From the NCBI GenBank assembly GCA_000004985.1, contig GG738908.1: 64,000 nucleotides of DNA. One strand, given 5' to 3'. This document shows, in pieces, positions 20,473 to 41,792 of this stretch. The notes beneath the pieces are model-generated. The model did not search any database and was not told where the DNA came from. It saw only the letters and a program-made list of their open reading frames with translations. Position numbers and translations under genes: made by a program. The stretch comes from Naegleria gruberi. Taxonomy: Eukaryota. The stretch's first letter is position 1. Every line of letters starts with the position of its first letter.

Positions 20473-23400
20473 TTAAGCAGTATTTTGAGTTCTTTGATTT
20501 GTTTTCTTGTGGAATAAAACTGTTCCGTAGTGTTGATTACCCATTACAATATTGCCATGATCCATTGGTATTTCATCTTTTCCAGTAAGTGTGGGCACAA
20601 TACTAACCATGCTTGGTATTGTTCTGTGTTTATCACCCCAACCTTTCTTCAGCTTGGTACCTATGTAAAATAAGACAAATATTGCCACCAATATAATCAC
20701 CAAAACAACCACAACAGAAATAACTGCTCCTATGATAATGGAGGCAAATTGAGCGTTTGCATCCACAACAGAACAATCAGATCCCAAAAATCCTGATAAA
20801 CATTGACATACACCATCCAAACAAATTCCATTCAAACTGCAATGATTTGGACAGGTAACATTTGCACAGGAAGCTGGGTTGGATTCACATGCATCAGCAG
20901 CAACTGCATTAGCACTAGCCATTGCAAAGGAAGTGTCACCAGTTGAAATTACATCGAACAAACAAGTCTGATAGAAAGTTCCAGTTAAACCAAGATTTGT
21001 GCAAATCTTTTTAGCAAGTTCGTTCAAGGTTTGATTTTCGGATGTGGCAGAAATAGCTGGTTCAAAATCGACAATGTTAATTGAGTTGTACGTTTCATCT
21101 GCTGTATAAATGAAATAGGATTCGCTTTGTGGCACTCTCCAGCTCTCTCCAAATCGTTTATGAATATCTGTGGCAGATGGATCATTCAATACAAGACCAT
21201 TCCTCAAAGTAAATTCATTGGATGCATTACCATCTAGTGTTCCATATAAACCTCCCTTTTCAGTTCCTGTAAAGTTAGTGTCCTTTGCAGGTGAGAAGGA
21301 GACACTAAGCCACTTGATTCCATCATTTTTCAATCTGAGCTGGCCTGAAAAGATTCCAGAAAACTTGATTAAAATTACTTTGAATGGAATGGAAGTGTCG
21401 TTCACCTTGTAAGAATTCACTGGATCCTTCTCTTCAACAATAGTAGCACCTCCATTCAATACATAGACTGGTTGTGAAGGTGGTTTGTAAGCGAGAGCAG
21501 TTTGTTGAATTTGTGGAATTTCATTAGTATCAGGATCTCTTTGATATTTGATTTGATCATAAAAGTTTTGTAAATCTTTTGGTATTTCAAGTGTTGCATT
21601 ATTTTCCACTGCTTGAACATTAACAACAGTTTCCTTGAGGTCTACAACTTGTCCATTGACATATACTACCACATCATTCGTTCCATCTGAAGAAACTTCA
21701 ACTGTATCAGTTCCACTTTGGAATGAAATAGCTTTCATGCAAGAGGTCTTGGAGTCCTTAGTACATTTAAGCAATCTTCCTTGCATGGTAAATTCAGTTA
21801 GATTTGTACAAGTAAAACTCTCCCAATGAATTGAAAGAGTACAACAGACCATCCACAGTTCTCAAGTGGATATCCCCAAAGGCAAGTACTCTGTTGAAAA
21901 GTTCAAACTCTTCAATCTTGTTGCACTTTGCTCCTGCAAAACCTGGGAAGCAACTGCAGATATTTGGGCCAACACAGGTTCCGTGCTCTGAACACCAGTC
22001 TTTATGAGCACAATGGAATTTAGAACAGTCATCGCCCATCCAGCCCCATCTACAAACACAATCATTCAATCCAACACATTTTCCTCTCTTTGCTCCTCCA
22101 CAATTTGAATAATTTGCACACAGTGAGTTGTCAAAAGTAATACAATCCAACTCTGGTGGAACATATGTAGCATCTTGGACGAAGATTGTTGAATACGAGT
22201 CAACTTTCAAGTACACCATGTTTGATTTGCAATCATACGATGTTTCTCCATCAGTTCTATTGGATGGGGATAGAATATATTCCTTATTTGGGCTAACAAT
22301 GTTAATAGAGATAGGGCCCCATGCACTGAACTTGAATCCCAAACTTATACCATATTTTCCTAACCAAGATATTTCAATCTTCTCTGGGGTACCAACAACT
22401 CCTAGCCATTCAACAGTATAACTGTTTGTGATATTATCCAAATATAGAGCTCTGTACTGCCATTCTCCTCCAGTTGTTAATTCTCCCAACAAATTTTCAG
22501 TTTGAAGATTTGATGTAGAGTTAATTCTTGTTTGATCGACAGAGTTTGTAATAGCTGGTGAGACAAACTCCAACTTGGACCAATTTACAGTCTCGTCACA
22601 CATGTATGCATTCCATGCTGAAACGTAAAAGCACTTATCAAAATCTACCATAATATTGTTTGCTGGAATGACTCTAGAATTGACTCTATTGAATCCGGCA
22701 GGAACAGTAATGTTATAGGATAAGCAACCATCTAGATCGATAATAATAGAGTGTTTGTAATTATCGTGTAGACCATTACTCTTACCAACCAATAGATATA
22801 TGACGTTAGAGTTGTGGAACTTTAAATTCTTGACGAGGTAATCGCCTTGAACCATTCTTGCCATCTTATCATTCTTAATACTAATAGCATTTGCTTTTCT
22901 GTTGCAATTATCAACAAAATTGAAAAACTCAATTCCGTCCAAAGTCATTGGTTTTCCGTCTCTGTGAAATTCTACACCAACAATTGGTTGGGTTCTGTAA
23001 TTTGCATAGGATCTGTGATAGGTAGAATTTGGATTTTTGTAATTACCACAAGAATAACAACCATAAGCACAACTACCAGTATTTCCCTTATTTCCAGACT
23101 CTCCAATGAAAATGCAGTCTTTGGCTGTGAACTTGTCTTGGTTGATCACATTGAAAGTATAACCAATAGGATTATCTGCATAGATACTATCCTTCATGGC
23201 TATTTCTCCTTGCACATAGGCAAATTGTCCTTGTACCTTATTTCTATAAGAGACGAGTTTTGTAAATTCGGCTACGGCCCAAGGATTTTCGGCACTACCA
23301 CACCTAATCTTTTGGAAGATTTCTAATCTAGGATCGGTACAAACAAAGAAATCGTGCCATAAATTGAGACCATGCTGTCTATTACTATGAACTGTGTTGT

Positions 23401-25868
23401 TGTAAAATTTTCCCCAATACCATCTGCTGGGTTGGATGTAAGGAGACATACTTGGACCTAAACTGTAAGGTTCTAATTGATACCAAATTCCATGACCTTC
23501 ACTACCAGCAGCTCTATTGTTGATAAGAGTATTGTGAGGATTAGTCATCCAGAATGTTGCTGGGGAAGCATCATGATTGGTAGGACTTAGAATAGCTCTC
23601 GAGTCTGGGATGGCTTTTGTTACAAGTCCCAAACAATTCTCAATAATATTTCCCTCTTCAACTGCATCTTCCAAAAAGAAAGTATGTCCAAAAACATTGT
23701 AAGCAACAATACCCTCAGCGTGTAAGTTATTCACGCCGTGGAATGTAATTCCTCTCTGATAGGTGTCGTGGATTGATAACTTTTTAACATAGGAAGTTGA
23801 AGCATTGTTAAACAAGTGGAAGTGAACTGGATATCTGAAAAATGTGTAAATAAATTGAATTCAATTTTTGAATAACTTACCTTCCCAAAGTTCCTGCCTG
23901 ACCACATCTCCTAAATTCTGCATTATTCAATCTGATGTACTTGGCTGTTCTCATGTAAATAGTGTGACATCCGAACAAGCTGTTATCACTACTTTCATCT
24001 CCTTGCACCTTAATGTTGTGTGTCAATAAGGCGACTTCAGCTCTCTGGTCAAACTCTACAACCGTACCATCTGCTTTTGTGTAGTATTCAGTTTCAGCGT
24101 AGTGACCATAAACAAGTGGTGAGTGCAATTCAAAAGCTGTTCCACTAATTCTTCTGGTGATAAATCTTCTCTCGGCCTGATACAAGTCATAATCTGTCGA
24201 TGCAATCACAATCTCATCACCCACATCCCACAATGTCTCTTGAGCGAGGTAAATGATGTTATCTCCAACTTTTGATGATTGTTTCAATAAAGTCCAAGTT
24301 ACCTCATGTCTCTTTCCATGCAAACTCAAGACGCCTCCACTCATCACAGCAATATTCTTGTTACCAACACCCTTATCACTCAATGGTGTCTTCTCTCCAT
24401 ACAGAGTGATTGTTGCTTTGTGTTGATATGGTGTTGACTCGTTACCGATTTGGAGAGAACCAGTAACAACCATACTGTTCATTTGTAATTGAAGATCAAG
24501 AGTTTCATTTCCGTAATCATTATTATCAAATATGAGACATCCATAAACCATGACTGTATCCAATTTAGGTGGGCTGACATCTAGAATAATTGTCTTGTCA
24601 GATGGAATTGTCACAAATGAAGCAGATGCAAGAGTTTTACAGGTTGTGTTCTTATAACTTGTTTTACATATTGGATTGTTTTCAACATAGTAGGTTGTTG
24701 AACAATTTTCAGACATTGAATCATTGGAACAATAAACGAAAGAGAAGGAACATGAAGGCATTGTAAAACTTGTAGTATTAAGCCCATTTAGCCCCATCTC
24801 ACATAATGAACAATTTGTTCCACTATCTGTAAAATTGCAAATGTCAGTTAAATTCATAGCCACTCTTTCTGTACAATTTACCTCAGTGTCATTAAATGAA
24901 TCACAAATGGTAAGGGAATAGCTACTTTCGCATTCGACAATTTGCTGAGTTGAAGGACATTTTACAGTTTCATTTGATACGGTGCTATAATTCGAATAGG
25001 TAGAGTTCACTAATTCTGGGAAATATTCTGACCATTTCACAGTCTCTGAAGGACAATTATCACCAATTCCAGTTCCATAAGGATCTGTTGTGGTTTTGGT
25101 AAAAATTATTGCTTGTTTTCCAACTCCATAAGCATTATATCCTTTAAATTTGTTATAGGGAAGAACTCTGAAACTGTATGTTACATTCTGATCCAAATTA
25201 AATCTAGTGTATGTTTCAGCTTGGTGAGTCTTGTACATTACAGTTACATATCCCAAAGAATTGAGAGTTGACATTTGTATTTGATAGTAACAAATAACAT
25301 TTGTCGTATCATTTGATAATTTCCACCTCAGCTCAATACTAAAATAAGTTGGTATTGCCACAAAATTTTCAACAATTGAAATGTTGGCAGCTGTTGAAAA
25401 TCTATTAGTAATATTTCCATCAGATGGATCTGACAAATCCGAGAGTAAATACCTCCTTGGAGCTCCCTGTCCAATCGACCAATAACAACAAGGGTCTCCT
25501 AGTTCATCACCATTTGTTAGACCATCTCCATCTGAGTCCATCAAGCAAAATGTTTCATCCCAAACATACTTATTCTTTGCAAAGTCCTTTGCAAACTTGG
25601 TCATTGTCCCATTCTTGAAGAAGATATTAGTAAAGAGTTGTGAGTCAGGATAGATTGCACCATTTGGTAGTTTTGTGATATCAAAATCTGCATATAAACT
25701 CGATAAGGGTTTTGAATACGTCGAAGGCAATTGGCTCACCAATAGAAGAATATATACAATGATAGAAGAACAATACAAAAACCATGATATCTTATCATAT
25801 CGGCTTGTTCTTATTGAGGAGTAAGATGATGAATAGTCCGAGTAGGACCTCTGTTCTCTCCTCATCAT
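20473..25868 (-). CDS. Giant type-I membrane protein: G8/CEMIP-TMEM2-fibrocystin-like domain, right-handed beta-helix, tenascin-type EGF repeats, VWD domain, EGF, TM and a short cytoplasmic tail
   Basis: Exon 1 (25868..23881) starts MMRREQ with a signal anchor (ISWFLYCSSIIVYILLLVSQL) and ends ...GQAGTLG(R), where the codon is split at a GTAAGT donor. A 46-bp intron spans 23880..23835. Exon 2 begins (R)YPVHFHLFNNAST, the hallmark GRYP(V/I)HFH motif of G8-adjacent domains, then runs through beta-helix and EGF repeats (CVGLNDCVCRWGWMGDDCSKFHC..CSEHGTCVGPNICSCFPGFAGAKC) and the VWD start (AFGDIHLRTVDGLLYSFNSLGEFYLYKSN). The VWD continues in the -1/+1 frame ORF 21852..20473 (..MQGRLLKCTKDSKTSCMKAISFQSGTDTVEVSSDG..VVYVNGQVV), then EGF (CPNHCSLNGICLDGVCQC), a TM and the tail. 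There is a frame discontinuity near 21800-21850. Confidence 0.7.
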
Positions 25869-26209: not shown

Positions 26210-28814
26210 TTAAGCAATATTGATGGAGGATATTTCGATTTTATCGTTCAGATGAGAAATTCCTTTAAGGGATTTTTGAAGAGTGGTATGATAATTGTGG
26301 AGAGCCTGAGCCAAGTTTTGACTCTTCTGATTGGTGAGAGTATCAAGAATAGTAAGCAAACGATTCGTAATAATTTGATCCTCTGGATACTTATTCAAAT
26401 GATCTTGAAGAATATTGACCGATTCTTGGATTCGGTCCAGAACTTGAGAATCAGACATCGAAGAAACAGTCTTTGGATCAAAGATTGCAAAGGCAGCTTC
26501 AAAATCTTTGAACTTTTTGTTTGCTTTTTGCTGTTCCAGTTCATACATCCATTCTGATAGGTATCAATTTGTAATGAATTGAATTAGTGAAATTATTAAT
26601 TACTAACAAACTTACCATCTTTTTCATAACTATTCTCCTTAATGACTTCATAGACAACTGTTGGAGTTTTGCCTTCGCTATTCTCCAAAACAAATCTTTC
26701 GACAGGTCTCACAACAAATGCAGAAGTGGCCTCAGTGCAAACACTCTCACTATCTGCAAGGATCTTACAACCAAGTGAACAACCTAGAATGGAGAGGTTC
26801 TTTGAATTGGTAACCATTGGACCGACGATTGAGTAATATCTCAAATTGTTTGTTCCCAAATTACCCACATTGGCCATTCCAGAGCTAATACCGATAGAAT
26901 AACTTGATAATTTACCAAGGTTGTCCAAAACTTTGGAAACCTTGAGAGCACTTTCCATAGCTGCCAAGTTTTGTTTCTTCTTACAATCAGCAAATGAGAG
27001 TTGGAATTCTTCAACTGATAGGATTTGCAAATCAGCTTGCAAACTCTTTGCCAAAACACTCAATCCTGATGCTACCTTTGCAAATAAATTCGTTACTTCC
27101 AAAGGATTTAACTTTCCAAATTCATTCAAATGAATGTAGACGATACTGACTGGCTTGATGGAAAGACCCAATTTGAATAATCCACCACCAGATTTCAAGT
27201 CATGTTTGGAAGATTTCAGAGAGCTGTGGGCTGAGCTTCTATTAGAGAGTGAATGTCTGCTCTCTTTCATGCTTTCATTATTCTTATCCGTTTGTGATTG
27301 CTCCTGTTCAGCCTTCTCCATATTTCTCAACTGATTGAAAATTGTCTCTGGTAAGAAACTCTTAAATTCATTCAACCAATTCACCATTTCGTGTAAGTCT
27401 TCATAAATTCTATTGACTTCCCTAAATTTACTTGAAATAAAGTTGACATTCTCCAAATCAAACTTCTTAATGAGGAAGAATTGACTTTCCAAATATCTCA
27501 ATGGTTGAGTTATTAAATATCCGATACCAATACTGAGAATCAAACCAACAATCACCACTGCTACTGCCACACCAACAGATATACCAGTGTTAATATTGGT
27601 AGTCTTGGCAATATCACTCTTGTAAACAACAAGGAAAACATTCCATCTGATATTTTCTAAAGAGAAGGATAATCTGGAAATTAGATAATCGACTCCCTTA
27701 CTAGTGAATTCAAAATCTGAGGGAGAAGATGTCAGATTTGAGTACTTGGCAGCTATTCCTGACATGAGAGCTCCAGAATCTTTGGCAATTAGATCAAATA
27801 TCTTGACACGAGACTTGCTGTCAGCTGCTGTGGTGTTAATCGAGCCTCCAATGACGAAGTCATTCGTTTCTGAAACGAGTACATAACCGTCTCCAATTAG
27901 AGTTAATGTTTTAAGGAACTTTTCAATATTCAACAATGACAAGTTGACCTTTGAAATACCAATTGTCTTTTTTGTTCCGTTCAATGCCAGCAAGTATGGA
28001 TCATACAATTTTACAGAATAATAAATACAAGTTGTTGAATTGACAACAGTGTAAGGCAATCCATAAACCCTATCCGTTTGATACAAATCAAAAAAGTTGA
28101 AACTTGTAACCCAATATGCCAATGAAGTAATTACAAAAGGAGTTGTCTGATTGACCACCAAATTAATAAAAGATCCATCAGTTTCATTTGCATACCATTG
28201 TTCAACTCCAATATATCCCTTCGGTTTGACATAATAAGTGAACGATTGTTTTGGTTTTCCATCGGGAAAGATTGTCAAATTGAAATAGGTATTCACCTCA
28301 TCTGGAAAGAACAACCCAACAGCTGATGGATAGAATATCTGATTCTTGGAAAATAAGTAACTCAAATCAGGTTTTCTTCCAATGAGTCCTCTATTGAAAT
28401 CTTCAGCCAAAACTCGAGCCAAGTGAGCTGAAGGAGAAATTTCTCCCTTCAAGAAGGCCATTACATTCTCTCCAACTTTATGGATTAAATCAGTAGAAAG
28501 TGAGTCCAATGCTTGAGTGGAACCAATATACGAAGCTAACCAAATGAAGAAGGAACAGGTAATGAGGAGAATGATCATAATGATAATGATGGTCAATCGC
28601 ATGGAGAACCAACCTTCCATTTTGGTTGGAATTTTTGGTTTGACCTTTTGTCCAGAGACGAGTTCTTCATTTTCATGATTGAGGCCAGCAGAAGAACCCT
28701 ATTGTTGATTTCAGTTTCGAATAGTGCAATTTGTAGTGCATTTAGTCAGTTGCTTTGAAATGTATTGTTACTTACAGAAAACTCTGAAGGTGATGCAGGT
28801 GCAATTTTAGACAT
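26210..28814 (-). CDS. Membrane receptor with an extracellular Cache/CHASE-like domain between two TM segments, a coiled coil, and a C-terminal degenerate class-III nucleotidyl-cyclase homology domain; three exons
   Basis: Proposed structure join(28814..28776, 28698..26616, 26553..26210). Exon 1: MSKIAPASPSEFS. A 77-bp intron precedes exon 2, which encodes GSSAGLNHEN..KMEGWFSMRLTIIIIMIILLITCSFFIWLA (TM1), an extracellular region of about 300 aa, TM2 (ISVGVAVAVVIVGLILSIGIGYLI), a coiled coil, and a cyclase-like core (VSIVYIHLNEFGKL...SIGISSGMANVGNLGTNNLRYYSIVGPMVTNSKNLS). A 62-bp intron (26615..26554, GTAAGT..TATCAG) precedes exon 3 (E)WMYELEQQKANKK.., stop at 26210. Confidence 0.65.
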
Positions 28815-29443
28815 TTCTTTGATATTGAATCTCTAAGACATTAGAACTAAACTTCATCTGCCAAATTGTTAAGTGACAGCAATCACTAACCATCAATACA
28901 GAGATACTTCTCTTACATCATTCAAAATTGCCTTGAACAGTAGTGACAATTTTTGGCGCCAATTCGAATGGCCATTTTCGTTTTGCATCTCGAAATAATG
29001 TGAAGTGAAGTGATGGGAAATATTTACAACTAAGGTTCACCCGCGTCGATACAATCAATATTCGCCTTAGTATGGAGATGAATACATTTTGTTATTGAAT
29101 TGGAGCTCTGGATAAATTGTTTTGTGGGTTACTATTAACATATTTTAATTATTTGTTATTCAATAGTTTCGCGCCAAGCTAAAACCGTTACATAAATGAA
29201 AATCTTTAGATAAAATATTTTGAAAATAAATAAATTTATTATTAAAAGAATAAAAAATAGCATCACAGGACGGACTTAGGCCTTCCTTCGTGAAAGAGGC
29301 AACTCCACGTATGTTTTTGATAACAACAAGACTTTAACATTTCCTTTAACACAACCAATATTCACAATTGGGGAATTTTTATTGTTTAAATTATAGACTA
29401 CTTGATGATGGACTATTTACATGGAAGATATACACTAGGAAAT

Positions 29444-29764
29444 TTAAGGAATGGTGGTGATTGTTGGCTGTCCTATTGATGTCGTATGAATATGATCAAT
29501 TGGATCCTTGGTAAATGAGGATGATTTTCTCATCATGATTGCCAATATCAACATTCCAGCAATACCACTCAAACATACCAGAAAACTACCAATGGCAAAG
29601 ACAATCTCTGCAGCTCCAACATTGTATGAAACTTGAGAGTTTGGTGAATTGGTAATGGTAATCAAACCAAATATCATCAAGCAAATGAAGGCTAAACAAG
29701 TGAGTGATGAAGTTACTCCAAAAGCAATCATCATTAATTTACTACGTTCTGCGTCGAGGGCCAT
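29444..29764 (-). CDS. Hypothetical small membrane protein (106 aa, two TM segments)
   Basis: ATG-initiated ORF with two hydrophobic helices (MMIAFGVTSSLTCLAFICLMIFGLITI; IVFAIGSFLVCLSGIAGMLILAIMM). No domain recognised. Confidence 0.35.
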   Translation of the reverse strand: MALDAERSKLMMIAFGVTSSLTCLAFICLMIFGLITITNSPNSQVSYNVGAAEIVFAIGSFLVCLSGIAGMLILAIMMRKSSSFTKDPIDHIHTTSIGQPTITTIP

Positions 29765-29931
29765 TTTTTAATATTGGGTTTGAAGGATATTTCATTGAGG
29801 ATGTAGTTGGATTTATCCAAAATTGCATTGTTGCAATTTGGAAAGTATCCATTTATTGATTCTTCTCATTTCTGTGGATGTCACGAAATCGTCATCTGGT
29901 AAATTTCCAATTTTGGTACATGATTTTCAAG

Positions 29932-31817
29932 TTATTGATCTTTCACATAGGCGACCCAATTGGTGTTGTAATCGTTCCAATTAGATTTGTTGTTATGTTT
30001 TCTTATTAATCTGCCATATGCTCTATCATACATGTCCCACAAAACTTCATGCTTTTTGGCATCCAACTTGTCATAATTCATAGATTTGATAAATTCCTCA
30101 AATTCAATCTTTCCCACACGGTAATATTTTGGTTTGAGTCCCAATTTGAATAGCAAGTATCTGGACAACTTCATTTCACCAATGGCAGTACACAACTTAC
30201 AAGGCGACTTGATGACATTGGCCAAGTGAAATTTGAGCGACATATCCTGAATACCCTTCTTGGTTTCATCTGACATTCTCTGTTTGAAATATTCGTTAAA
30301 CTTTTGATCGTCATCACAATAAGGTTTGATATGTTGTGCCATCTCTGTTGGTGATTTAAAATCATGAATGCTAATGAAACTATCTTTTGGAAAACCATAC
30401 TCATTGATATTGGGAGCACCTCGATAGATTGACACTAGCTTTCCACCCAATCCCAAAGGAGTGAAACCTTCAAAGAACTTTTCAGTAATGTAATCATCCA
30501 ACATGCTATTTTCAAATGCTAGATAGAATTTGCAACTTCTTGCCAATTCTGCAACCTTTCCTCCTTGTTCATGAGCATTTCTTCCACATCCTTTCCAAAA
30601 CAGCAGAATATTAGCACTTGATTCAGGTATTTGAAAATCAAAGTCAACTTACCACCATATTGTCTAACTGGAAGGACATTGCTAATTTCCTTCACAACAT
30701 CCATTCTCTCCTTGACACAATTACTGATGAATGCACAAATGCAATGTGGAGGAATTCTAGAACTATCTCTAAATTCAAAATCCATTTTCGTATAGAAATA
30801 GGTTGTCCAAATACTACACTGTGCACTCCAACACATTGTCATGTCCATGTGAGATTGGTCATTTCTGGCATGTGGTTCAATTTCTCTAAGAGCATTAGGT
30901 TCGTTACAGAGAAATACATTGATTGGTCGCATGGCCAACCAAGTTTTCAAAGCAAATTCCTTATCAAATTGTTGTGACAATTCAACACTTGACAAATCTG
31001 AATTTGATTTTACAAAATTGTCAATTTCCTCTTGGACTTTTCTTTCCTCCTCAACTTTTTCCAATCCAAGACCTCTATCTCTATATTCCAAATGTTCAAT
31101 ATTGGCATCGAGACTAATTCCTTCTGCCTTTCCACTTGTGAAATAACTTCTCGAGTCTTCATATGGAAAAACTTGACATGCAGTTTGTTTACAGTGAGCT
31201 TGATTGTACTTTCTAAAGAAACCAAACCAATTCGGTCTCGTAGTCTGCTCCTCACCGAAACCATATTGAATTAACTGGGTTTTTACACTTGGATCGAATT
31301 TGTAGCCACCTATGGATTGAGTATTGGTCAACTTGTCCAAATACCAACCATAGGTTCCTTCCTTTGACTGTTCATAGGACAACATGTTTTGTGCCAATCT
31401 AAAGAATGGAGAATGGCTCTCTAGTAGTGGATTCTCACTTAACTCTTCTAATTCAGTTATTTTCAATGAAGGTTGTTGTTCGAGTGAAACTTTCTCTGGA
31501 TGAATCGAAGTCGAATCCACTCTACTCTTTCTACTCAATATGAATACGATGAAAACAACGTAGAAAGATGAAAAGATGAATAGAGAGGCTTTCCAAGGTG
31601 TAATTTTCATTTTTTTGTTTCGATAAGTGATAAGGTTAATGTTCCAACCTCCATGGAGGATTGTAAACAGTTGAAAATAGGGAATGTTATTCTGGATTTT
31701 TGACTTTTGTTCTATGGAGGATACATGGTCAGAAACAGACTCGTCTATTGAGAGTTTGGATTCCAAAGAGGTCTTGGAAAGTTTTGGTAAGTTCTTATTC
31801 GAGTTGAGTTCTGTCAT
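29932..31817 (-). CDS. Alpha-1,3/4-fucosyltransferase (glycosyltransferase family 10), type-II membrane topology, two exons
   Basis: Proposed structure join(31817..30653, 30590..29932). Exon 1: MTELNSNK.., a signal anchor (ASLFIFSSFYVVFIVFIL), a stem and the catalytic domain, ending ..PVRQYG(G) at a GTAAGT donor. A 62-bp intron spans 30652..30591. Exon 2 begins GCGRNAHEQGGKVAELARSCKFYLAFENSMLDDYITEKFFEG, the GT10 signature motif. Confidence 0.8.
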
Positions 31818-32046
31818 TTGAACAAACAATCAAAATAAACTTTGTGCGAAACAATTCAACAAAAAATCAAGATGAGTGATTCTAATCCTTCACACTTTAA
31901 GTTTTGGGGAACAGATTGGGGAATTTGCTTTAAAGTTCTTAGAGGTCAAACAGATGATACGAATATTAATCCTGAAGATAAACTTTACAAAATATAAGCT
32001 ATTCATCAACGGTATTGTTTAATATTTTGTAAATGAATTCCATCAT

Positions 32047-34340: not shown

Positions 34341-37070
34341 ATGGCAGGAGATTTTCGGAAGGCGTTTTATGCTGCGGAAAAAGGCAAAATTGATGAATTT
34401 AATAATTATTTTAATGAACAAGACGTTAATAAATCACAGAGAGGTGTTACCATGTTATATATTGCTTGCCAAAATGGACATTTAGAAATTGTTAAATTAT
34501 TATTATCATGTAAAACAATTGATGTTAATTTGAGTGTAAGTATTTTAATATTTAATTTAATTTTATATTTATAATATTAGACTGTAAGTATTTCAATGTT
34601 TAATATTTTTTATATTTAAAATATACATTAGACTGTAAGTATTTGATATTTAATATTATTTTATATTTTTAATATTAGTATGTAAGTATTTTAATATTTA
34701 ATATTTTTTATATTTTTAATATTAGTATGTAAGTATTTAATATTTAATATTATTTTATATTTATAATATTAGACCGTAAGTAATTAATATTTAATTTGAT
34801 ATTATTTATGTTTATAATATTAGTTTGTAAGTATTTAATTTTATTTATATTAATAATATTAGATGGTAAGTATTTTAATATTTAATATTATTTTATTTTT
34901 AATATTAGACACCATTATACATTGCGTGCCACTATGGACATTTAGAAATTGTTAAAGAATTACTTCAACATCCAAATATTGAAATAGATAGCGAATTGTC
35001 AGTGAATGGAATTAATATTCAAACAATTAAAAGTGACATGGAAAAGGAACAACAAATATTACAAGAACAAATAGAACAAAAAAAGTTGAAACAACTAGAA
35101 ATGGAAAGATTAGAAAGAAAAAGAATTACAAAATTAGAAATGGAAAGAATTGAAAAAGAACGTTTATTAAAAATAGAAAGAGAAAGAAAAGAATTTGAGA
35201 AAAAGCAACCATTCATAATCACATCTGAAACACTTTCAAAATTATGTTCACTCAACCAACAAGTAGATAATAATAGAAGAAAAGTTGAAAAACAATTTGA
35301 ATCAATTCAATCATTTTCTTCTTCTATTCAAATTGAGAAAGAATTTCAAGATGAATATTTAAGAATTTGTGATAATTTAAATAATTGTTGTAATTTAATT
35401 GAAAAATTAACAAGTAATAATTATAATATTGAAAATAATGAACATTTGTCAACTATTAATAATTTAATGAATAATATTAGAACTATATTGGAATTTATTA
35501 ATAATCAAAAATATTTATTTAAATTACAATCTTATTCAGAAGTATTAAATGAAAAATTAGAATTATTTAATGAATTTAATTCTCAATTTATTAAACAAGA
35601 ATTATTTGACAATATTGAAATGAGTGAACAATCTATTAAGAATATAAAAAGTATTAATATTGTTCCAACTCATAATAAATTTGGAAATGAAACTAAAACA
35701 ATATTACAACAAGTTACAAAACAATTATCAAATATTGTAAACTCTATCAATAATTGTAATGAAATTGATTTGACACAATTTTCAAATAATTTACAAAAAG
35801 CAATGGAATTATCAGAACAAGAAGAATTATATTTAAATAATATATTGTCAAATTGTAAAATATTAATTTCAGACAATGATCAAATGAATATTTTACAATT
35901 ATATAATTATTATCAAAAACAAGAATTAAATTGTAAATTATTAATTCAAGAAACAATTCCATATATAATTGAAAAATATGAAATGTTACAAAATATTATA
36001 AATATTATGAATAATTATTCAAATTTATCTGAACAATTTAAAACTATTCAAAGACAAAAAACAAGAATTNAAGAAATTTAATTGTGANNNNNNNNNNNNN
36101 NNNNNNNNNNNNNNNNNNNNNNNNNNNNNNNNNNNNNCATGAAAATTTGAAAATTGAAATTTTAAATCTAGAAAAGGAAAAGAAACAATTTTCAAATTCA
36201 AAGTCAAAGAAAAGTGAAGAAATTTCAAAGAAATTACAAAATTTGAAACAAAAAGAAATTGAAATTGAGAAGATGGAAAAGGAAATTAAAGAATCAAAAT
36301 CCAAACAATTAACAATTTCACTTCCAAGTTATTGGAAAAGAAACACATTCCAAACTTATTCGAAAAGATATTACATTATTGATGTTACACAATATTTAAA
36401 AGATACAATGCAAGAAATTATGAATGTATCGTGTAATTCTGCAACACTTGGATCTGGAAGAGATCAATTATTAAGAATTAATTATTCTAAATTAATTGTT
36501 TCAAGTGTTTCAAGAATTGAAAATTCAACACTTTTCACTTCATTCAAATCAAGAATGAATCATTTAATTTCATATCAAGATTCAATTAATTCACTTCAAG
36601 TTCAAACTGAAAATATTTCAAAAACATCAAAAACATTTGAATGGATGAAAACAATTGGATTAAATTCTAATATGAATGAAAAATATTTATGGCATGGAAC
36701 AAAACCTGAATTTGTGAATACAATTGCAGAACATGGATTTGATGAAAGAGTTGCAAATTTAAATGGATTATTTGGAGCAGGTATTTATTTTGCAGAATAT
36801 TGTTCAAAGAGTGATCAATATTGTACACCTGATCATTCAAATGAATATACTCTTTTATTATGTAGAGTTGTAATGGGAAGACAAATTCATTTCACAAAAC
36901 AAGTGATGAATAATCAGAGAAGACCACCTGAAATTTCAGGAAGTAATAATAGAGTTTATGATAGTGTTATTGGTCAATCAAATACTTCAACTAATTCATA
37001 TAGAGAATTCATTGTCTATGATAAATGTCAATGTTATCCTGAATTTATTATTAAATACAAGAGACAATAA
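34341..37070 (+). CDS. Ankyrin-repeat – coiled-coil – (kinase region missing or in gap) – PARP-catalytic-domain protein (copy B, inverted paralog of 10466..14954)
   Basis: Exon 1 (34341..34535): MAGDFRKAFYAAEKGKIDEFNNYFNEQDVN..TMLYIACQNGHLEIVKLLLSCKTIDVNLS, then GTAAGT. A 373-bp intron (34536..34908) is made of eight 47-bp intron-like units. Exon 2 from 34909: TPLYIACHYGHLEIVKELLQHPNIEID, then coiled coil that is near-identical to copy A. After ..TIQRQKTRI comes a 50-N gap (36088..36137), then HENLKIEILNLEKEKK.. and the PARP domain, which differs from copy A at only a few residues (e.g. SKTFEWMK against SKSFEWMK). Stop at 37070. About 80 bp of 3' flank are also shared with copy A. Confidence 0.8.
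34536..34908 (+). repeat. Tandem array of eight 46-47-bp intron-like units forming intron 1 of PARP-gene copy B
   Basis: Units read GTAAGTATTT(T/C/G)A(A/T)(T/G)TTTAATATT(A/T)TTTTATATTT(A/T)TAATATTAG, each followed by exactly 3 nt (ACT, ACT, TAT, TAT, ACC, TTT, ATG). The first exon-2 codon is ACA. Confidence 0.85.
36088..36137. other. Assembly gap (50 N) at the position where copy A carries its kinase domain
   Basis: Run of N characters. The adjacent base at 36070 is also N. Whether copy B lacks the roughly 1.5-kb kinase region cannot be decided from this sequence. Confidence 0.99.
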
Positions 37071-37705: not shown

Positions 37706-39703
37706 TTGGATTCGGAAGAAATTAATTCGAATAAGAAAATTTGGATTTCGTTTATAATAGTTTCGATTATGTTCGGAGGATTAGTTTTATTATTAATGAA
37801 TGATTCATTCATTACGAACGGATCAGATTTTATTCGAAAGGATTCGTTTGAAATTTCTACATCCAATCACGAACTGAAATTAATAGAAATTTATTCCAAT
37901 ACCACTTCTTCTACTGAAATACGAAACGATTCATCAATTTGTCATCCAATTTTATTAGAAATGGGAGCCGAAAGTTCTTTAGGTCTTTGTGATGATCAAG
38001 TTTCGTCCAAAACCATCGCAGCAATCTTTCTCTTTGCCCACACCATCCTCGTTATTGTCACTCTCTCTGGCCTTCTCTACAAATTATGGAAATTACGAAA
38101 CGACATTTCGAATAGAGAAGCCAACTTTCTAACCATTACCAGAAATCCACTTTTAATGACATTAGGCTCCTTAATTGGATGGAGCTATAGTCTTGTAATG
38201 ATGGGAAGAGTACTCATTGGACGAAAGGTTTATCCATGTTTCTTATTCATGTTTGTTTTCTATATGGCAGTTCCTGGATTGGCAAGTACGATCATTATCA
38301 GATGTTTGAGATTGATAATTTTATCGAGGATGAATGAATTGAAAGTCAAGATTGGGAATAGAGAGATGAAGAGTGTGCCGAATCAAGTGAATGATAAATT
38401 GGAAAGGAAATATTCGAATGTTGTTGTGGATGGTGGAGTGGTGGTTGAAAGTGAATTGAAAGTTGTGAGCTCTGTAACGAGTACGAGTACTCAGCAAGAT
38501 GCAATTAATTCTTCTCTTGACAATGTGTCAGAAAGTGAGAGTGCTTGCACAATTTCAGCAATTCCACCAAGTATAGAGCCACAATCAATGAATATTACAT
38601 TGGAAGATTCTGTGAGTGTAAATCAACCTGGATATTCGAAATGGGAATCATTTGAAAGAAGATGGCTCATGAAAATGTACAAATTTCTAATTAGTTCCAA
38701 ATTCATAGCCATCTGGTATGCATCCATTGCAATTATACATATTGGAATTTACATTATCATTGGAGCATTTGATTATTTCAATTTCGAGAATGGTGTTAAC
38801 AATTTTTCCATTGAAGAACGACGATCCATGTCATTTGTGTACGATACTCGAATTTTCTCAGTTGGAGGATGTGGAATTAGTTTCAATTCAGTTTTAATTT
38901 TTGTCATTTATTTGGCAGTTTATGGAATTGTGGCCATTGTCATGTCCATTTATAGTTTTCTGGTCAAGAAGGATATTTGGAAAGTTAAAACAGAGCTCAT
39001 CCTCATTACACTCAATTGGTTAATCTTTTCAATTCTGTACGGAGTTTTTTCAATCATTGAAGTGTTGAGCATTCTCGTTGATTATTTCTTTCCAACAGTT
39101 GCTTTTATTTTACTGGCATGTGTCATTGACACGTTTGTTTCATGCACCATTCCAGTATTTTTCTATCAACGTTCCAAGAACTCTAAAGTAGCCAACACTC
39201 GACAAGTTTCCACCTCCAACATGCTTTCTAAAATACTATTTGATAAGAAATGGAATGAGGAATTCTTAATCTTTTCAGAGAAGAGTTATTGTCCAGAAAA
39301 TTTAATGTGTTGGAATTCTATTGAGATTTTTAGAGAATCTTCTGAGAAATTGAGAAGGAAACATATAATTAGTATTCTGGAAACTTATTTATTGGAAGGA
39401 TCTCCTTTGGAACTCAATGTTCAACGTCAAATATTTAATAATTTTGAAAATATCACGTCAATTGTCAGATCAATCAAAGCTCAAGAAGCAGAATTGAAAC
39501 GCTTAGCAGAGGAGAATAATAAGGTTGTGGGAACAGCTGTGGTAGCTCTGCAACGTAGAAAGTCAATGAAAATCATTCAAATTCCAACAAATTTATTCGA
39601 TTCCATTCAGAAACATTGTGAAATTAATATGGCTGATTGTTTTGATAGATTTTATGTGCAACATTGGCAGAAATTATGCATGGAATTGGATGTAGAGGAG
39701 TGA
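37706..39703 (+). CDS. Seven-transmembrane receptor with a C-terminal RGS domain (7TM-RGS, AtRGS1/GprK-like), paralog 1, intronless as far as visible
   Basis: Signal/TM (IWISFIIVSIMFGGLVLLLM); a Cys-containing ectodomain (NDSSICHPILLEMGAESSLGLCDDQ); seven hydrophobic helices (IAAIFLFAHTILVIVTLSGLL ... FFPTVAFILLACVIDTFVSCTIPVFFY); then an RGS domain (EFLIFSEKSYCPENLMCWNSIEIFRESSEKLRRKHIISILETYLLEGSPLELNV). The true start is uncertain because the first in-frame codon in the track is TTG. Confidence 0.75.
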   Translation: MDSEEINSNKKIWISFIIVSIMFGGLVLLLMNDSFITNGSDFIRKDSFEISTSNHELKLIEIYSNTTSSTEIRNDSSICHPILLEMGAESSLGLCDDQVSSKTIAAIFLFAHTILVIVTLSGLLYKLWKLRNDISNREANFLTITRNPLLMTLGSLIGWSYSLVMMGRVLIGRKVYPCFLFMFVFYMAVPGLASTIIIRCLRLIILSRMNELKVKIGNREMKSVPNQVNDKLERKYSNVVVDGGVVVESELKVVSSVTSTSTQQDAINSSLDNVSESESACTISAIPPSIEPQSMNITLEDSVSVNQPGYSKWESFERRWLMKMYKFLISSKFIAIWYASIAIIHIGIYIIIGAFDYFNFENGVNNFSIEERRSMSFVYDTRIFSVGGCGISFNSVLIFVIYLAVYGIVAIVMSIYSFLVKKDIWKVKTELILITLNWLIFSILYGVFSIIEVLSILVDYFFPTVAFILLACVIDTFVSCTIPVFFYQRSKNSKVANTRQVSTSNMLSKILFDKKWNEEFLIFSEKSYCPENLMCWNSIEIFRESSEKLRRKHIISILETYLLEGSPLELNVQRQIFNNFENITSIVRSIKAQEAELKRLAEENNKVVGTAVVALQRRKSMKIIQIPTNLFDSIQKHCEINMADCFDRFYVQHWQKLCMELDVEE

Positions 39704-39870
39704 GGAGGAGAGGACTAGAGTTTGTTTTTATGAATTACCCCATTAAGATGACTTGTGGCCATAGCTGTCACTTGTCCATATTTGTAATTTATTAATATGC
39801 ACTTTGCGAAGACGAACGAAGAATAAGGTGGAAGATCTGATGCGCCAAGTCCGTCAAAATATTGAAAAAA

Positions 39871-41792
39871 ATGCCCAACTGCCATTCACTTGGCAGCTGC
39901 CACACGTCACTTGACATTCAAAAACCAAAAACAAGATTTTTCATCTCTCTATCTCTTCTCATCATGATGACGATGAATTTTCCAACAAACGCATCAATTT
40001 TGAATACAACCATCATCAACACTGAATTACGAAATGATTCGTCAGTTTGTCATCCAATTTTATTAGAAATGGGAGCCGAAAGTCAGTACGGATTATGTGA
40101 TGACCAAACACCTTCAAAAGCACTTGCTGGAATCTTTCTCGGATTGCACACAATTTTGGAAATAGTTTCGTTTATTGGACTTTCGTATAAATTATGGAAA
40201 GTAAAAAGGTCAACCAGCAATGAAGCCAATTTTCTGACCATTACCAGAAATCCACTTCTCATGATTTTGGGCTCATTGGTCGGATATATCTATAGCATTA
40301 TCATGATGGTTAGAATTTTAATTGGACGAAAGATTTTTCCATGTTTCTTATTCATGTTTTGTTTTTATATGGCAGTTCCAGGATTGGCAAGTACGATCAT
40401 TGTCAGATGTTTGAGAACTATTACATTATCGAGGATGAATGAATTGAAAATCAAGATTGGTAATCGAGAAATGAAAGATTTGAAAAATGTCGAGTTGAGT
40501 GTGATGAGTTCTGTACAGATTGATGCAGTTTCGTCTAGTACGGAAACTTCTGAGAGTAATGTTTCACAAACTAATGTTTCATTTTCGGTTGAAAGTAATG
40601 CTACTGGATCACATTCTGGAACTTTGGAAAGTGGAAATCAAATGGTCAACCAGCAAGTTACTTTGGAAGATTCTGTCAGTGTGAATCAACCAGGAATTAC
40701 CAAATGGGAGAATTTTGAAAAGAAGGTCTTGATGAAGGTTTACAAATTCCTGATCAGTACCAAATTTGTAGTATTGTGGTATTCAATGATTGCCATCGTT
40801 CACATTGGAATTTATATCATTATTGGCGCAGTTGACTATGTGAATTATGATAAGAATATTGCACTTTCGTATGCTGAAAAAAAGTCCTCGTCCTTTGTTT
40901 ACGATACCAGAATATTCACAACCAATGGATGTGGTATCAGTTTCAATAGTGTTCTCATTATTATTGCCTATTTGGTGTTTTATGGAAGTTTTGCAATTGT
41001 GATTATTGGATATAGTTTTTTAATTAAGAGAGATATTTGGAGAGTCAAGATTGAGTTGTATATTATTGTGATTTGTTGGATTTTATTGATTATTCTGTAT
41101 GCTGTCTTTTCAGTTATTGACATTTTGAGTACCTTGTAAGTAATATAGTAGTAGTAGTAGAATGATTAACATTTGACAGGGTTGATTATTATTTTCCAAC
41201 CTTTTTGTTTATTTTGATTGGCTGTATGATTGATACATTCATGAGCGTGACAGTTCCTGTCTTTTTCTATCAAAAGGCAACAATAGATAATAGATATTCT
41301 CAATCTTCTAGAACTAACATACTTGTCAAGTGTCTATTCAATAAGAAGTGGAATGATGAATTTTTACTCTTCTCTGAAAAGAGCTATTGTCCAGAAAATT
41401 TGATGTGTTGGAATGCCGTTGAGCAATTTAAGAGAGCTCCTGAAAAACTGAGAAGAAAACTCATTAAGGTCATTATGGAGACCTATCTTATCGAAGGTTC
41501 TCCACTCGAACTCAATATTCAACGAAATATGTTCAATAATTTTGAAGATATTTCAGCCATCACTGATTCTATTAAGAGACAAGAGAATGAAATGAAAAGA
41601 CTTGTCGCAGAGAATAATATCGTGGTTGGAACGATCAAAAAGAGAAGATCTATGAAAATGATTTCAATTCAACCAAATATTTTGGATAGAGTTCAGAAAC
41701 AATGTGAAGTGAACATGGTTGACTGTTTTGATAGATTTTATATTCAGTATTGGCAAGATATGTGTAAAGATTTGGAATCTGATGAGAATTAA
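39871..41792 (+). CDS. Seven-transmembrane receptor with a C-terminal RGS domain, paralog 2, two exons
   Basis: Proposed structure join(39871..41135, 41180..41792). ATG at 39871 (MPNCHSLGSC..) with the same ectodomain motif (NDSSVCHPILLEMGAESQYGLCDDQ). Exon 1 ends ..DILST(L) at a GTAAGT donor (41136). A 44-bp intron (gtaagtaatatagtagtagtagtagaatgattaacatttgacag) has no counterpart in paralog 1. Exon 2: VDYYFPTFLFILIGCMIDTF..FSEKSYCPENLMCWNAVEQFKRAPEKLRRK (RGS). Confidence 0.75.

What the first reader, a model, noticed from the sequence alone, without database searches (positions are those of the whole stretch)
26210..28814. Receptor with a Cache/CHASE-like ectodomain and a degenerate (probably inactive) class-III cyclase homology domain
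The C-terminal roughly 150 aa align to the adenylyl/guanylyl cyclase catalytic fold (…IGISSGMANVGNLGTNNLRYYSIVGPMVTNSKNLS… corresponds to GIHSGPVVAGVIG…RYDVWGDTVNxASRME). The first metal-binding Asp of the FADIVGFT motif is replaced by His (VYIHLNEFG), and the second Asp motif is not evident. That predicts a pseudo-cyclase or an obligate heterodimer partner. The N-terminal region lies between two TM helices, consistent with an extracellular ligand-binding sensor. Sensor-linked pseudo-cyclases in protists are little studied.
Basis: partly seen in the sequence, partly recalled or inferred. Interest (0 to 1): 0.6.

Follow-up and report, generated by a model that had tools for sequence, protein, structure and literature searches.

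The report
Naegleria Cache receptor with dead cyclase domain
This Naegleria gruberi gene encodes a membrane receptor whose outside part is a bacterial-type double-Cache ligand sensor and whose inside part has the adenylyl/guanylyl cyclase fold but lacks nearly every catalytic residue; it belongs to a large, apparently undescribed protist family of such "pseudo-cyclase" receptors, so published counts of Naegleria cyclases may include non-enzymes.

Summary
Positions 26210-28814 (minus strand) are exactly one three-exon gene of 821 aa from Naegleria gruberi.

The protein reads: TM1, a 315-aa double-Cache ectodomain (not CHASE), TM2, a HAMP-like juxtamembrane helix pair, a disordered 41-aa linker, a class III cyclase homology domain (CHD, residues 518-707), a DEWMYE motif and a 114-aa helical tail.

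The CHD is invisible to Pfam from the single sequence. It is secure from three other results:
- family profiles against PDB (E = 2e-5 and 2e-22);
- Foldseek on an AlphaFold model (E = 4e-11);

At the canonical catalytic positions the protein has H536, I572, E576, S636, T643 and N647, in place of Asp, Lys/Glu, Asp, Thr/Asp/Cys, Asn and Arg. Both half-sites are therefore broken. That favours a true pseudo-cyclase over a complementing heterodimer subunit.

The degeneracy is family-wide. Of 132 CHDs taken from the 150 best database representatives (Naegleria, Willaertia, Peranema, Colponema, metagenomes), one keeps the first Asp and none keeps more than four of six residues. The domain is nevertheless as conserved as the sensor.

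The Cache-HAMP-cyclase architecture is already published; I found no report of the dead catalytic site. The output mechanism is inferred, not shown.

The parts
26210..28814 (-). Whole coding region of the receptor gene (821 aa; 3 exons, stop codon included)
   Evidence: Identical to residues 520-1272 of NCBI N. gruberi protein P0001.
28776..28814 (-). Exon 1 (residues 1-13, MSKIAPASPSEFS)
   Evidence: ATG at 28814, followed by GTAAGT at 28775. The MxK(I/V)xP start is shared by orthologues P0003-P0007.
28699..28775 (-). Intron 1 (GT..AG, phase 0)
   Evidence: Supported by the orthologue N-termini only, not by transcript data.
26616..28698 (-). Exon 2 (residues 14-707 plus the first base of codon 708)
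26554..26615 (-). Intron 2 (GTAAGT..CAG). It splits the conserved D|EWMYE motif.
   Evidence: The junction is confirmed by the exact match to P0001 and by DEWMYE in paralogues.
26210..26553 (-). Exon 3: EWMYE motif, a 114-aa helical and possibly TPR-like C-terminal tail (residues 708-821), and the stop codon
   Evidence: Weak TPR_21/TPR_1 Pfam hits fall in the equivalent tail of distant relatives P0077 and P0158. No structure model was made.
28531..28599 (-). Transmembrane helix 1 (residues 47-69)
   Evidence: Kyte-Doolittle scan, peak 2.99.
27586..28530 (-). Extracellular double-Cache (dCache) sensor domain (residues 70-384)
   Evidence: AlphaFold model m7cf3420b536d has pLDDT 86.4 and pTM 0.81: a long helix followed by two alpha/beta modules. 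Foldseek against PDB returns dCache ligand-binding domains, best E = 2e-9. Pfam dCache_1 is weak for this protein (E = 0.44) and reaches 3e-6 in paralogues.
27511..27585 (-). Transmembrane helix 2 (residues 385-409)
27310..27510 (-). HAMP-like juxtamembrane module plus signalling helix ending in LPETIFNQLRN (residues 410-476). This is the most conserved segment of the protein.
   Evidence: 71% mean identity to paralogues. Helix-loop-helix in the AlphaFold model, but at pLDDT 42-62. No HAMP profile hit, so the HAMP label is unconfirmed.
27187..27309 (-). Ser/Lys/His-rich low-complexity linker (residues 477-517), variable in sequence and length among paralogues
   Evidence: pLDDT below 50. 18% identity, and 36-73 aa long in paralogues.
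26617..27186 (-). Degenerate class III cyclase homology domain (residues 518-707)
27130..27132 (-). His536 codon, at the position of metal-binding Asp 1
   Evidence: Alignment of the family profile to CyaB 3r5g. Family tabulation: Asp in 1 of 132.
27022..27024 (-). Ile572 codon, at the position of the base-specifying Lys/Glu
27010..27012 (-). Glu576 codon, at the position of metal-binding Asp 2
   Evidence: Asp or Glu in 36 of 49 close relatives.
26854..26865 (-). GNLG motif (residues 625-628), near-invariant in the whole family. It corresponds to GNFG of the active cyclase CyaB.
26830..26832 (-). Ser636 codon, at the position of the substrate-specifying Asp/Thr/Cys
   Evidence: Alignments to RhGC 6sir/5oyh and to CyaB.
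26809..26811 (-). Thr643 codon, at the position of the transition-state Asn
26797..26799 (-). Asn647 codon, at the position of the transition-state Arg

Best explanation
The gene encodes a type of receptor that looks like a bacterial-type Cache-HAMP-cyclase but no longer makes cyclic nucleotide.

Shown:
- A glycosylatable double-Cache domain lies outside the cell between two TM helices.
- Inside come a very conserved helix-loop-helix, a floppy linker, a domain with the full class III cyclase fold, a DEWMYE motif and a helical tail.
- Five of the six canonical catalytic positions are non-functional residues, and so is the aligned phosphate-binding Lys.
- The same is true across the whole family.
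- The dead domain is nevertheless as conserved as the sensor.

Inferred:
- Ligand binding in the Cache domain moves TM2 and the HAMP-like module.
- The cyclase-fold domain, which in all known relatives works as a head-to-tail dimer, serves as a dimerisation and conformational-switch scaffold, and possibly as a nucleotide-binding module.
- The signal leaves through protein-protein contacts of this domain and its DEWMYE/TPR-like tail, not through cAMP or cGMP synthesis.
For: Architecture.

CHD fold and homology:
- PDB profile hits are only class III cyclases, E = 2e-5 and E = 2e-22.
- Foldseek E = 4e-11.

Catalytic positions. Residue-level alignments to CyaB and RhGC give H536, I572, E576, S636, T643 and N647. 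The Lys of the CyaB 'VKGF' motif aligns to Glu in 'LENSEGK'.

Family-wide loss. Among 132 CHDs from the best 150 representatives, Asp at the first metal site occurs once. The Lys/Glu position is mostly Ile or Val. None has more than 4 of 6 canonical residues.

Purifying selection. CHD identity to paralogues is 52%, against 50% for the sensor and 18% for the linker. GNxG, [RK]633 and G639 are near-invariant.

A family-specific DEWMYE motif follows the CHD in 117 of 160 sequences.

The variable, disordered 36-73-aa linker interrupts the normally rigid helix-to-CHD connection.

Against: - No biochemical data exist; inactivity is predicted from residues only.
- Glu576 and His536 could in principle bind a metal.
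- Ser636 is compatible with the Thr/Ser seen in class IIIb cyclases.
- Some class III cyclases tolerate unusual substrate-binding residues (own knowledge).
- The HAMP assignment failed every profile test, and that part of the model has low confidence.
- The tail was not modelled, and its TPR-like nature rests on weak hits in distant relatives.
- No interaction partner is known.
- Residue mapping rests on sequence-profile alignments, because model coordinates could not be inspected.
Confidence: 0.62

Rival explanations
1. Regulatory subunit of a heterodimeric cyclase. The dead CHD pairs with the CHD of an active Naegleria cyclase paralogue. It either poisons it (dominant negative) or creates one catalytic and one allosteric site, so that the Cache sensor controls cNMP synthesis by another protein.
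For: - Class III CHDs function as dimers, and heterodimers with one degenerate site are well known: tmAC, sGC and chytrid NeoR/RGC, where both partners alone are inactive (PMC12264004).
- Naegleria encodes many cyclases; 'at least 81' are reported in PMC9928731.
- The fold, and presumably the interface strands around GNLG..R..YSIVG, are strongly conserved.
Against: - A productive heterodimer needs one intact half-site from each partner. This protein lacks both the Asp pair (H536, E576) and the Lys/Asn/Arg set (I572, T643, N647). With a normal homodimer-type partner both composite sites would be defective.
- No other CHD lies in the 64-kb window.
- All 150 best relatives are degenerate too, so no obviously complementary subfamily was seen.
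Confidence: 0.22
2. It is still an enzyme. It would be a cyclase, or another nucleotidyl transferase, with a non-canonical active site that uses His536/Glu576 and other residues.
For: - His and Glu can ligate metals.
- Ser636 fits the class IIIb Thr/Ser position, and the domain is under purifying selection.
Against: - The residue at the first metal site is not conserved even among the closest relatives. It is H, E, K, Q or R in N. fowleri and N. lovaniensis homologues.
- Asn, Arg and Lys are all lost, and the replacing residues vary.
- A conserved new catalytic constellation is not visible in the alignment.
Confidence: 0.08
3. Decaying paralogue or annotation artefact with no function.
For: - Naegleria has very large paralogue families.
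- The reference annotation of this locus is wrong, being a fused model.
- There are no expression data here.
Against: - The reading frame is intact over 821 codons, with canonical splice sites.
- Orthologues or paralogues at 51-55% identity over full length exist in N. fowleri and N. lovaniensis.
- Conservation is domain-specific, high in the folded domains and low only in the linker.
Confidence: 0.03

Closest known systems
TM-Cache1-HAMP-class III cyclase receptors of Discoba (Euglena gracilis, Bodo, Naegleria 'NCIII' subfamily; Ebenezer et al. 2019, PMC6366073) and the N. gruberi 'bacterial-type adenylate cyclase' with a Cache domain (Upadhyay et al. 2016, PMC4822843)
   Same: Same domain order: TM, Cache ectodomain, TM, HAMP(-like), single class III cyclase-fold domain. 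Same organism group. This gene very probably belongs to the group those papers drew.
   Different: Those papers treat the proteins as cyclases and do not discuss catalytic residues. Upadhyay et al. report a single Cache protein in Naegleria, whereas the AlphaFold model of this protein's ectodomain and weak dCache_1 Pfam hits in 8 of 14 family members indicate dCache in a whole paralogue family that mostly scores below Pfam thresholds. The DEWMYE motif and helical tail are not mentioned there.
Active bacterial class IIIb cyclases, e.g. P. aeruginosa CyaB (PDB 3r5g) and cyanobacterial Cya2 (2w01)
   Different: CyaB has Asp, Lys, Asp, Thr, Asn and Arg where this protein has His, Ile, Glu, Ser, Thr and Asn. 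CyaB has no Cache sensor and no DEWMYE tail.
P. aeruginosa class III adenylyl cyclase-like ATP-binding protein (PDB 6yii, deposited as 'transcriptional regulator')
   Different: It is a soluble bacterial protein without Cache, TM or HAMP modules, and similarity is much lower than to active cyclases. Whether this Naegleria domain binds nucleotide is untested.
Heterodimeric cyclases with one degenerate site: mammalian tmAC C1/C2, soluble guanylyl cyclase alpha/beta, chytrid NeoR/RGC1-2 (PMC12264004)
   Same: Same fold. They show that a catalytically incompetent CHD can be retained for regulation.
   Different: In those systems each subunit keeps one complete half-site, so that one composite site works. 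Here both half-sites are defective, and no partner gene is adjacent.
Degenerate GGDEF/EAL receptors of bacteria such as LapD (PDB 3pjx, 6pwj)
   Different: It is a different domain family (GGDEF/EAL, not the class III CHD), with a different messenger, and is bacterial.

Membership tests
Class III nucleotidyl cyclase homology domain (fold-level membership) | Cyclase palm fold detectable by structure comparison | tested here: met
Class III nucleotidyl cyclase homology domain (fold-level membership) | Significant sequence-profile match to Guanylate_cyc (PF00211) or to solved cyclases | tested here: met
   The single sequence gives no Pfam hit. The family profile hits PDB cyclases at E = 2e-5, and the wider profile at E = 2e-22. 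Six of 14 relatives give weak PF00211 hits. Distant relatives exceed the Pfam gathering score.
Catalytically competent class III cyclase | First metal-binding Asp (FxDIxGFT, beta1) | tested here: not met
   His536 (VYIHLNEF) aligns to the CyaB Asp. Asp occurs in 1 of 132 family CHDs.
Catalytically competent class III cyclase | Second metal-binding Asp (GD, beta2-beta3) | tested here: not met
   Glu576 (SVEEF) aligns to the CyaB 'GD' Asp. The substitution is conservative, and the position is Asp in 24 of 49 close relatives.
Catalytically competent class III cyclase | Base-specifying Lys (AC) or Glu (GC), four residues before Asp 2 | tested here: not met
   Ile572. Ile or Val in 43 of 49 close relatives.
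Catalytically competent class III cyclase | Second substrate-specifying residue (Asp in AC, Cys in GC, Thr/Ser in class IIIb) | tested here: inconclusive
   Ser636 aligns to Thr of CyaB and to Cys/Asp566 of RhGC. This is compatible with class IIIb but not diagnostic of activity.
Catalytically competent class III cyclase | Transition-state Asn and Arg (xxVNxAxR, alpha4) | tested here: not met
   Thr643 and Asn647 (GPMVTNSKNL against GREVNLASRL). Both positions vary across the family.
Catalytically competent class III cyclase | Measured cAMP/cGMP synthesis | not testable with these tools
   Needs an enzyme assay.
dCache_1 extracellular sensor | Long N-terminal helix followed by two PAS-like (PDC) alpha/beta modules | tested here: met
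   AlphaFold pLDDT 86.4 and pTM 0.81, with matching secondary structure. Foldseek hits are dCache ligand-binding domains (PacA, PctA/B/C, Mlp24, Tlp3, mmHK1S), E = 2e-9 to 3e-7.
dCache_1 extracellular sensor | Pfam PF02743 match above the gathering score | tested here: not met
   10.5 bits against a cut-off of 45, E = 0.44. Eight of 14 relatives hit weakly, best E = 3e-6.
dCache_1 extracellular sensor | Extracytoplasmic location between two TM helices | tested here: met
   TM 47-69 and 385-409. Several NxS/T sequons lie in between (read from the sequence).
CHASE domain | CHASE fold or profile | tested here: not met
   No CHASE family in the Pfam output. Structural matches are dCache.
HAMP domain | About 50-aa helix-connector-helix directly after the last TM helix | tested here: inconclusive
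   Position and pattern fit (P412-L..L, then a second amphipathic helix). AlphaFold gives helices 3-17 and 36-56 of the model, but at pLDDT 42-62.
HAMP domain | Profile match to HAMP (PF00672) or to solved HAMP domains | tested here: not met
   No hit in Pfam at E up to 10. The PDB profile search of residues 405-477 gives only chance hits, best E = 0.096.
Complementing subunit of a heterodimeric cyclase (C1/alpha-like or C2/beta-like) | One complete half-site retained: either both Asp, or Lys/Glu + Asp/Cys/Thr + Asn + Arg | tested here: not met
   Both sets are incomplete.
Complementing subunit of a heterodimeric cyclase (C1/alpha-like or C2/beta-like) | Partner CHD gene nearby or a demonstrable physical partner | tested here: not met
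   A six-frame HMM scan of the 64-kb window finds only this CHD. Physical partners are not testable here.
TPR-like C-terminal domain | Profile match to TPR families | tested here: inconclusive
   Nothing for this protein. Weak TPR_21 (E = 0.004) and TPR_1 (E = 0.001) hits occur in the equivalent tails of P0077 and P0158.

The most novel reading that the evidence does not exclude
This gene is one member of a large superfamily of receptor pseudo-cyclases, possibly ancient. It is found in Heterolobosea, euglenids and at least one alveolate. Members carry diverse ectodomains (dCache, PnrA-like binding protein, ankyrin and others) joined to a catalytically dead cyclase-fold domain with a signature DEWMYE motif and a TPR-like tail. 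The family would signal by a non-enzymatic route, such as nucleotide sensing or scaffold switching. If so, a substantial share of the famous 'cyclase expansions' of free-living protists would not be cyclases at all.
Probability: 0.45. Interest if true: 0.72.

Novelty: new variant of a known kind. Interest (0 to 1): 0.55.

Why it matters
Naegleria and other free-living protists are cited for very large repertoires of membrane adenylyl/guanylyl cyclases. That is taken as evidence for cyclic-nucleotide-centred environmental sensing ('at least 81 cyclases', PMC9928731; 'NCIII' expansions, PMC6366073).

If whole subfamilies have lost the catalytic machinery yet remain under selection, two things follow. 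The counts overstate cNMP-synthesising capacity. And a second, unknown output mechanism for Cache-type receptors exists in eukaryotes.

The family gives a defined test case. It has a clear signature (GNxG plus DEWMYE), many paralogues, and an organism in which differentiation and chemotaxis can be assayed. It also flags an annotation problem: the reference N. gruberi model for this locus is fused to the neighbouring fucosyltransferase gene and lacks the first TM helix.

Tried and rejected
- **Single-sequence searches.** Pfam on the 821-aa protein gave only dCache_1 at E = 0.44 and no cyclase hit. The PDB phmmer search gave nothing relevant.
- I rebuilt the alignment with the contiguous exon 2 translation.
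- **Unproductive homologue searches.** Two of the three homologous-protein searches, using the CHD profiles A2 and A6, returned only 2-3 fragments.
- **HAMP.** The PDB profile search of residues 405-477 gave chance hits only. The HAMP label is kept as 'HAMP-like'.
- **CHASE.** Rejected in favour of dCache.
- **Neighbouring partner.** A six-frame scan found no second CHD. The neighbours are unrelated: a G8/temptin/CEMIP-like gene, a GT10 fucosyltransferase, RGS receptors, a choline-transporter-like gene and an MFS transporter.
- **Literature.** The Naegleria genome paper (Cell 2010) is not held. The search for 'DEWMYE' found nothing. Searches for pseudo-cyclase or inactive-CHD papers found no description of this family.
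- **dN/dS.** Considered and not attempted, because at about 55% amino-acid identity synonymous sites would be saturated. Per-domain identity was used instead.
- **Amino-acid-binding dCache motif.** The Arg of the RxWY-type motif appears replaced here ('LAYW'), while some paralogues have 'RDYW'. This rests on my recollection of the motif and was not tested further.
Full report
**Locus and gene model**

The interval 26210-28814 is one minus-strand gene. The ATG is at 28814. Exon 1 is 39 nt and ends before GTAAGT. Exon 2 is 2083 nt. A 62-nt GTAAGT..CAG intron follows, then exon 3, which ends with TAA at 26212-26210. The product is 821 aa.

The sequence is from Naegleria gruberi. NCBI protein P0001 is 100% identical over residues 69-821, including the exon 2/3 junction. 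P0001 is a 1272-aa model that fuses the upstream GT10 fucosyltransferase gene to this one and skips the first 68 residues. Homologues in N. fowleri and N. lovaniensis start with the same MxK(I/V)xP N-terminus and contain TM1. The three-exon model used here is therefore the better one.

**Architecture**

- Hydropathy gives two TM helices, 47-69 and 385-409.
- The 315 residues between them carry several NxS/T sequons (read from the sequence). AlphaFold models this region at pLDDT 86 and pTM 0.81 as a long helix followed by two alpha/beta modules.
- Foldseek against PDB returns, almost exclusively, dCache ligand-binding domains of bacterial chemoreceptors and histidine kinases, with E from 2e-9 to 3e-7. 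Pfam dCache_1 is sub-threshold for this protein (E = 0.44) but reaches 3e-6 in paralogues. The ectodomain is dCache, not CHASE.
- After TM2 comes the most conserved stretch of the protein, residues 410-476, at 71% identity to paralogues. It has a HAMP-like pattern (P-L..L, connector, second amphipathic helix) and then 'LPETIFNQLRN'. AlphaFold draws helix-loop-helix plus a long helix here, but with low confidence.
- No HAMP profile matches this stretch. I therefore call it HAMP-like only.
- A Ser/Lys/His-rich segment, 477-517, is disordered in the model. It is 18% conserved and 36-73 aa long in paralogues.
- Residues 518-707 are the cyclase-fold domain.
- Residues 707-712 are a DEWMYE motif, split by intron 2.
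- A 114-aa predicted-helical tail follows.

**Is it really a cyclase homology domain?**

The single sequence does not reach any Pfam threshold for Guanylate_cyc. The higher-sensitivity tests all agree:

- A profile of 12 family CHDs hits 22 PDB sequences, all class III cyclases, best E = 2e-5.
- A profile of 26 more diverse family CHDs hits 55 PDB sequences, again all class III cyclases or cyclase-like proteins. CyaB scores E = 2e-22 across the whole domain.
- The AlphaFold model of residues 404-707 has pLDDT 82-94 over the CHD.
- Foldseek's first 50 matches are all class III cyclases, best E = 4e-11, with target-normalised TM up to 0.77.

The fold assignment is secure.

**Catalytic residues**

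The HMMER alignments to CyaB (3r5g) and to the rhodopsin-guanylyl-cyclase domains 6sir and 5oyh fix the equivalences.

| Canonical role | Reference residue | This protein |
|---|---|---|
| Metal Asp 1 | Asp of CyaB 'FFSDIRGF' | His536 ('VYIHLNEF') |
| Base-specifying Lys | Lys of CyaB 'DKFVGD' | Ile572 |
| Metal Asp 2 | Asp of CyaB 'DKFVGD' | Glu576 ('QILSVEE') |
| Substrate-specifying | Thr of CyaB 'YTIIG'; Cys/Asp566 of RhGC | Ser636 |
| Transition-state Asn | Asn of 'VNLASR' | Thr643 ('VTNSKN') |
| Transition-state Arg | Arg of 'VNLASR' | Asn647 |
| Phosphate-binding Lys | Lys of CyaB 'VKGF' | a Glu in 'LENSEGK' |

Only the Ser (Thr-like, as in class IIIb enzymes) and the conservative Asp-to-Glu change remain.

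In a class III dimer each active site takes the two Asp from one subunit and the Lys, Thr/Asp, Asn and Arg from the other (established knowledge; see also PMC12264004). This protein can supply neither half.

**The family**

A profile of the full-length family was searched against 1.84 billion representatives. It found 4778 proteins at E up to 1e-3, 1104 at up to 1e-10 and 95 at up to 1e-30.

- The roughly 65 best representatives match over the full length. Those I looked up are from N. gruberi (at least eight paralogues identified by name), N. fowleri, N. lovaniensis, Willaertia magna and metagenomes.
- A second tier (E from 1e-38 to 1e-25) matches only from TM2 or the HAMP-like region through the CHD and into the tail. 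It includes another N. fowleri subfamily, the euglenid Peranema, the alveolate Colponema, a transcriptome labelled 'Hpha', and eukaryote-like metagenome contigs.
- Several second-tier members pass Pfam's Guanylate_cyc gathering score. They carry other sensors, including PnrA/Bmp-like binding protein, ankyrin repeats and a PDC module, plus weak TPR hits in the tail.

I aligned 132 CHDs from these 150 proteins to the family HMM:

- Asp at the first metal site occurs once. Arg, Lys and Thr dominate in tier 1, and Asn, Arg and Lys in tier 2.
- The Lys/Glu position is Ile or Val in 43 of 49 close relatives.
- The Asn and Arg positions are variable.
- No sequence has more than 4 of the 6 canonical residues.
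- Structural positions are nearly invariant: G625 (131 of 132), N626 (118 of 132), G628 (130 of 132), Arg/Lys633 (130 of 132) and G639 (111 of 132).
- A [D/E]EW[M/L]YE motif directly after the CHD is present in 117 of 160 sequences.

The CHD is as conserved among paralogues (52%) as the sensor domain (50%). The linker is not (18%). This is the signature of a retained, non-catalytic domain rather than of decay.

**Mechanism: shown versus inferred**

Shown are the topology, the dCache fold, the cyclase fold, the loss of catalytic residues in this protein and its family, the selective conservation, and the family-specific DEWMYE tail.

Inferred is the signalling route. Ligand binding to the distal Cache module would be relayed through TM2 and the HAMP-like helices, as in bacterial Cache receptors. 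The dead CHD, presumably a head-to-tail dimer like all relatives, would act as the switch or scaffold, possibly binding nucleotide as the cyclase-like protein 6yii is reported to do. The DEWMYE/TPR-like tail would contact downstream proteins.

The long, variable, disordered linker between the signalling helix and the CHD is unusual. By my own knowledge, active HAMP- or S-helix-coupled cyclases have a short, rigid connection there. This fits an output that does not depend on precise mechanical control of a catalytic dimer.

The rivals are:
- a regulatory or dominant-negative subunit for an active paralogue, plausible by analogy to NeoR/RGC, tmAC and sGC, but with both half-sites broken and no partner in the window;
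- residual non-canonical catalysis, unlikely because the replacing residues are not conserved even among the closest homologues;
- a decaying gene, contradicted.

**Comparison with the literature**

Upadhyay et al. 2016 noted a single Cache-containing 'bacterial-type adenylate cyclase' in Naegleria (PMC4822843). Ebenezer et al. [quoted passage not shown] A Naegleria pangenome paper counts 'at least 81 cyclases' (PMC9928731). UniRef labels the fowleri and lovaniensis homologues 'Guanylate cyclase domain-containing protein'.

The architecture is therefore known. None of the papers I could search mentions that the catalytic residues are missing, and the DEWMYE motif is not in the searchable literature. 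The library is incomplete: the 2010 Naegleria genome paper is not held. Prior description cannot be excluded.

**Verdict**

Two refinements apply: the ectodomain is dCache rather than CHASE, and the protein is better read as a true pseudo-cyclase than as a complementing heterodimer subunit. The gene itself is an ordinary member of a Naegleria paralogue family. The interest lies in the family-wide and apparently taxonomically broad loss of catalysis in a conserved receptor scaffold. I rate it a new variant of a known kind, with interest about 0.55.

Noticed in passing
window 26210-31829 (minus strand): The NCBI/UniProt N. gruberi model P0001 (1272 aa, named 'Fucosyltransferase') fuses the upstream GT10 fucosyltransferase gene (ORFs 29932-30546 and 30519-31829, PF00852) to the receptor. 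It joins at receptor residue 69, so it drops exon 1 and TM1. This is probably a mis-annotation.
   Followed up: partly
window 29444-29764 (minus strand): A 106-aa ORF with strongly hydrophobic stretches (apparently two or more TM segments) lies between the fucosyltransferase and the receptor gene, inside the region spanned by the fused reference model. It was not analysed.
   Followed up: no
window 11843-12355, 36088-36137, 60394-61134: Three runs of N (513, 50 and 741 bases) are assembly gaps. They explain the apparent very low GC in these bins and the artificially long ORFs across them. One example is 11808-13928 (minus), a coiled-coil protein whose kinase-like C-terminal part is cut by the gap.
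   Followed up: yes
window 14022-14764: An AT-rich tandem repeat with a 46-bp unit (also scored as 94 bp) in about 16 copies at about 81% match, in an intergenic low-GC region.
   Followed up: no
window 37706-39703 and 39862-41139 (plus strand): Two adjacent multi-TM genes are 58% identical over about 410 aa, i.e. a tandem duplication. The first carries a C-terminal RGS domain (PF00615, E = 4e-6). They look like receptor-RGS fusion proteins. The second ORF probably continues in a further exon.
   Followed up: partly
window 20473-25868 (minus strand): Three consecutive ORFs directly downstream of the receptor gene carry Temptin_C + fn3 + G8, then CEMIP beta-helix + EGF, then VWD/RGM_C + EGF + a TM segment. 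This is probably one large multi-exon gene for a CEMIP/fibrocystin-like surface protein.
   Followed up: partly
window 1782-7622 (plus strand): A 1946-aa ORF with repeated right-handed beta-helix regions (PF13229, E = 2e-35) and DUF1565, a large secreted or surface carbohydrate-binding or lyase-like protein.
   Followed up: no
related proteins P0139, P0140, P0146, P0121, P0136, P0149, P0153 and others (second-tier relatives): A subgroup of distant relatives has Asn in place of the first metal Asp but keeps a canonical 'GD' at the second site (e.g. 'VFVSNLCGF ... FSGDR'). This pattern differs from the Naegleria family and may mark a separate route, or an earlier stage, of inactivation.
   Followed up: no
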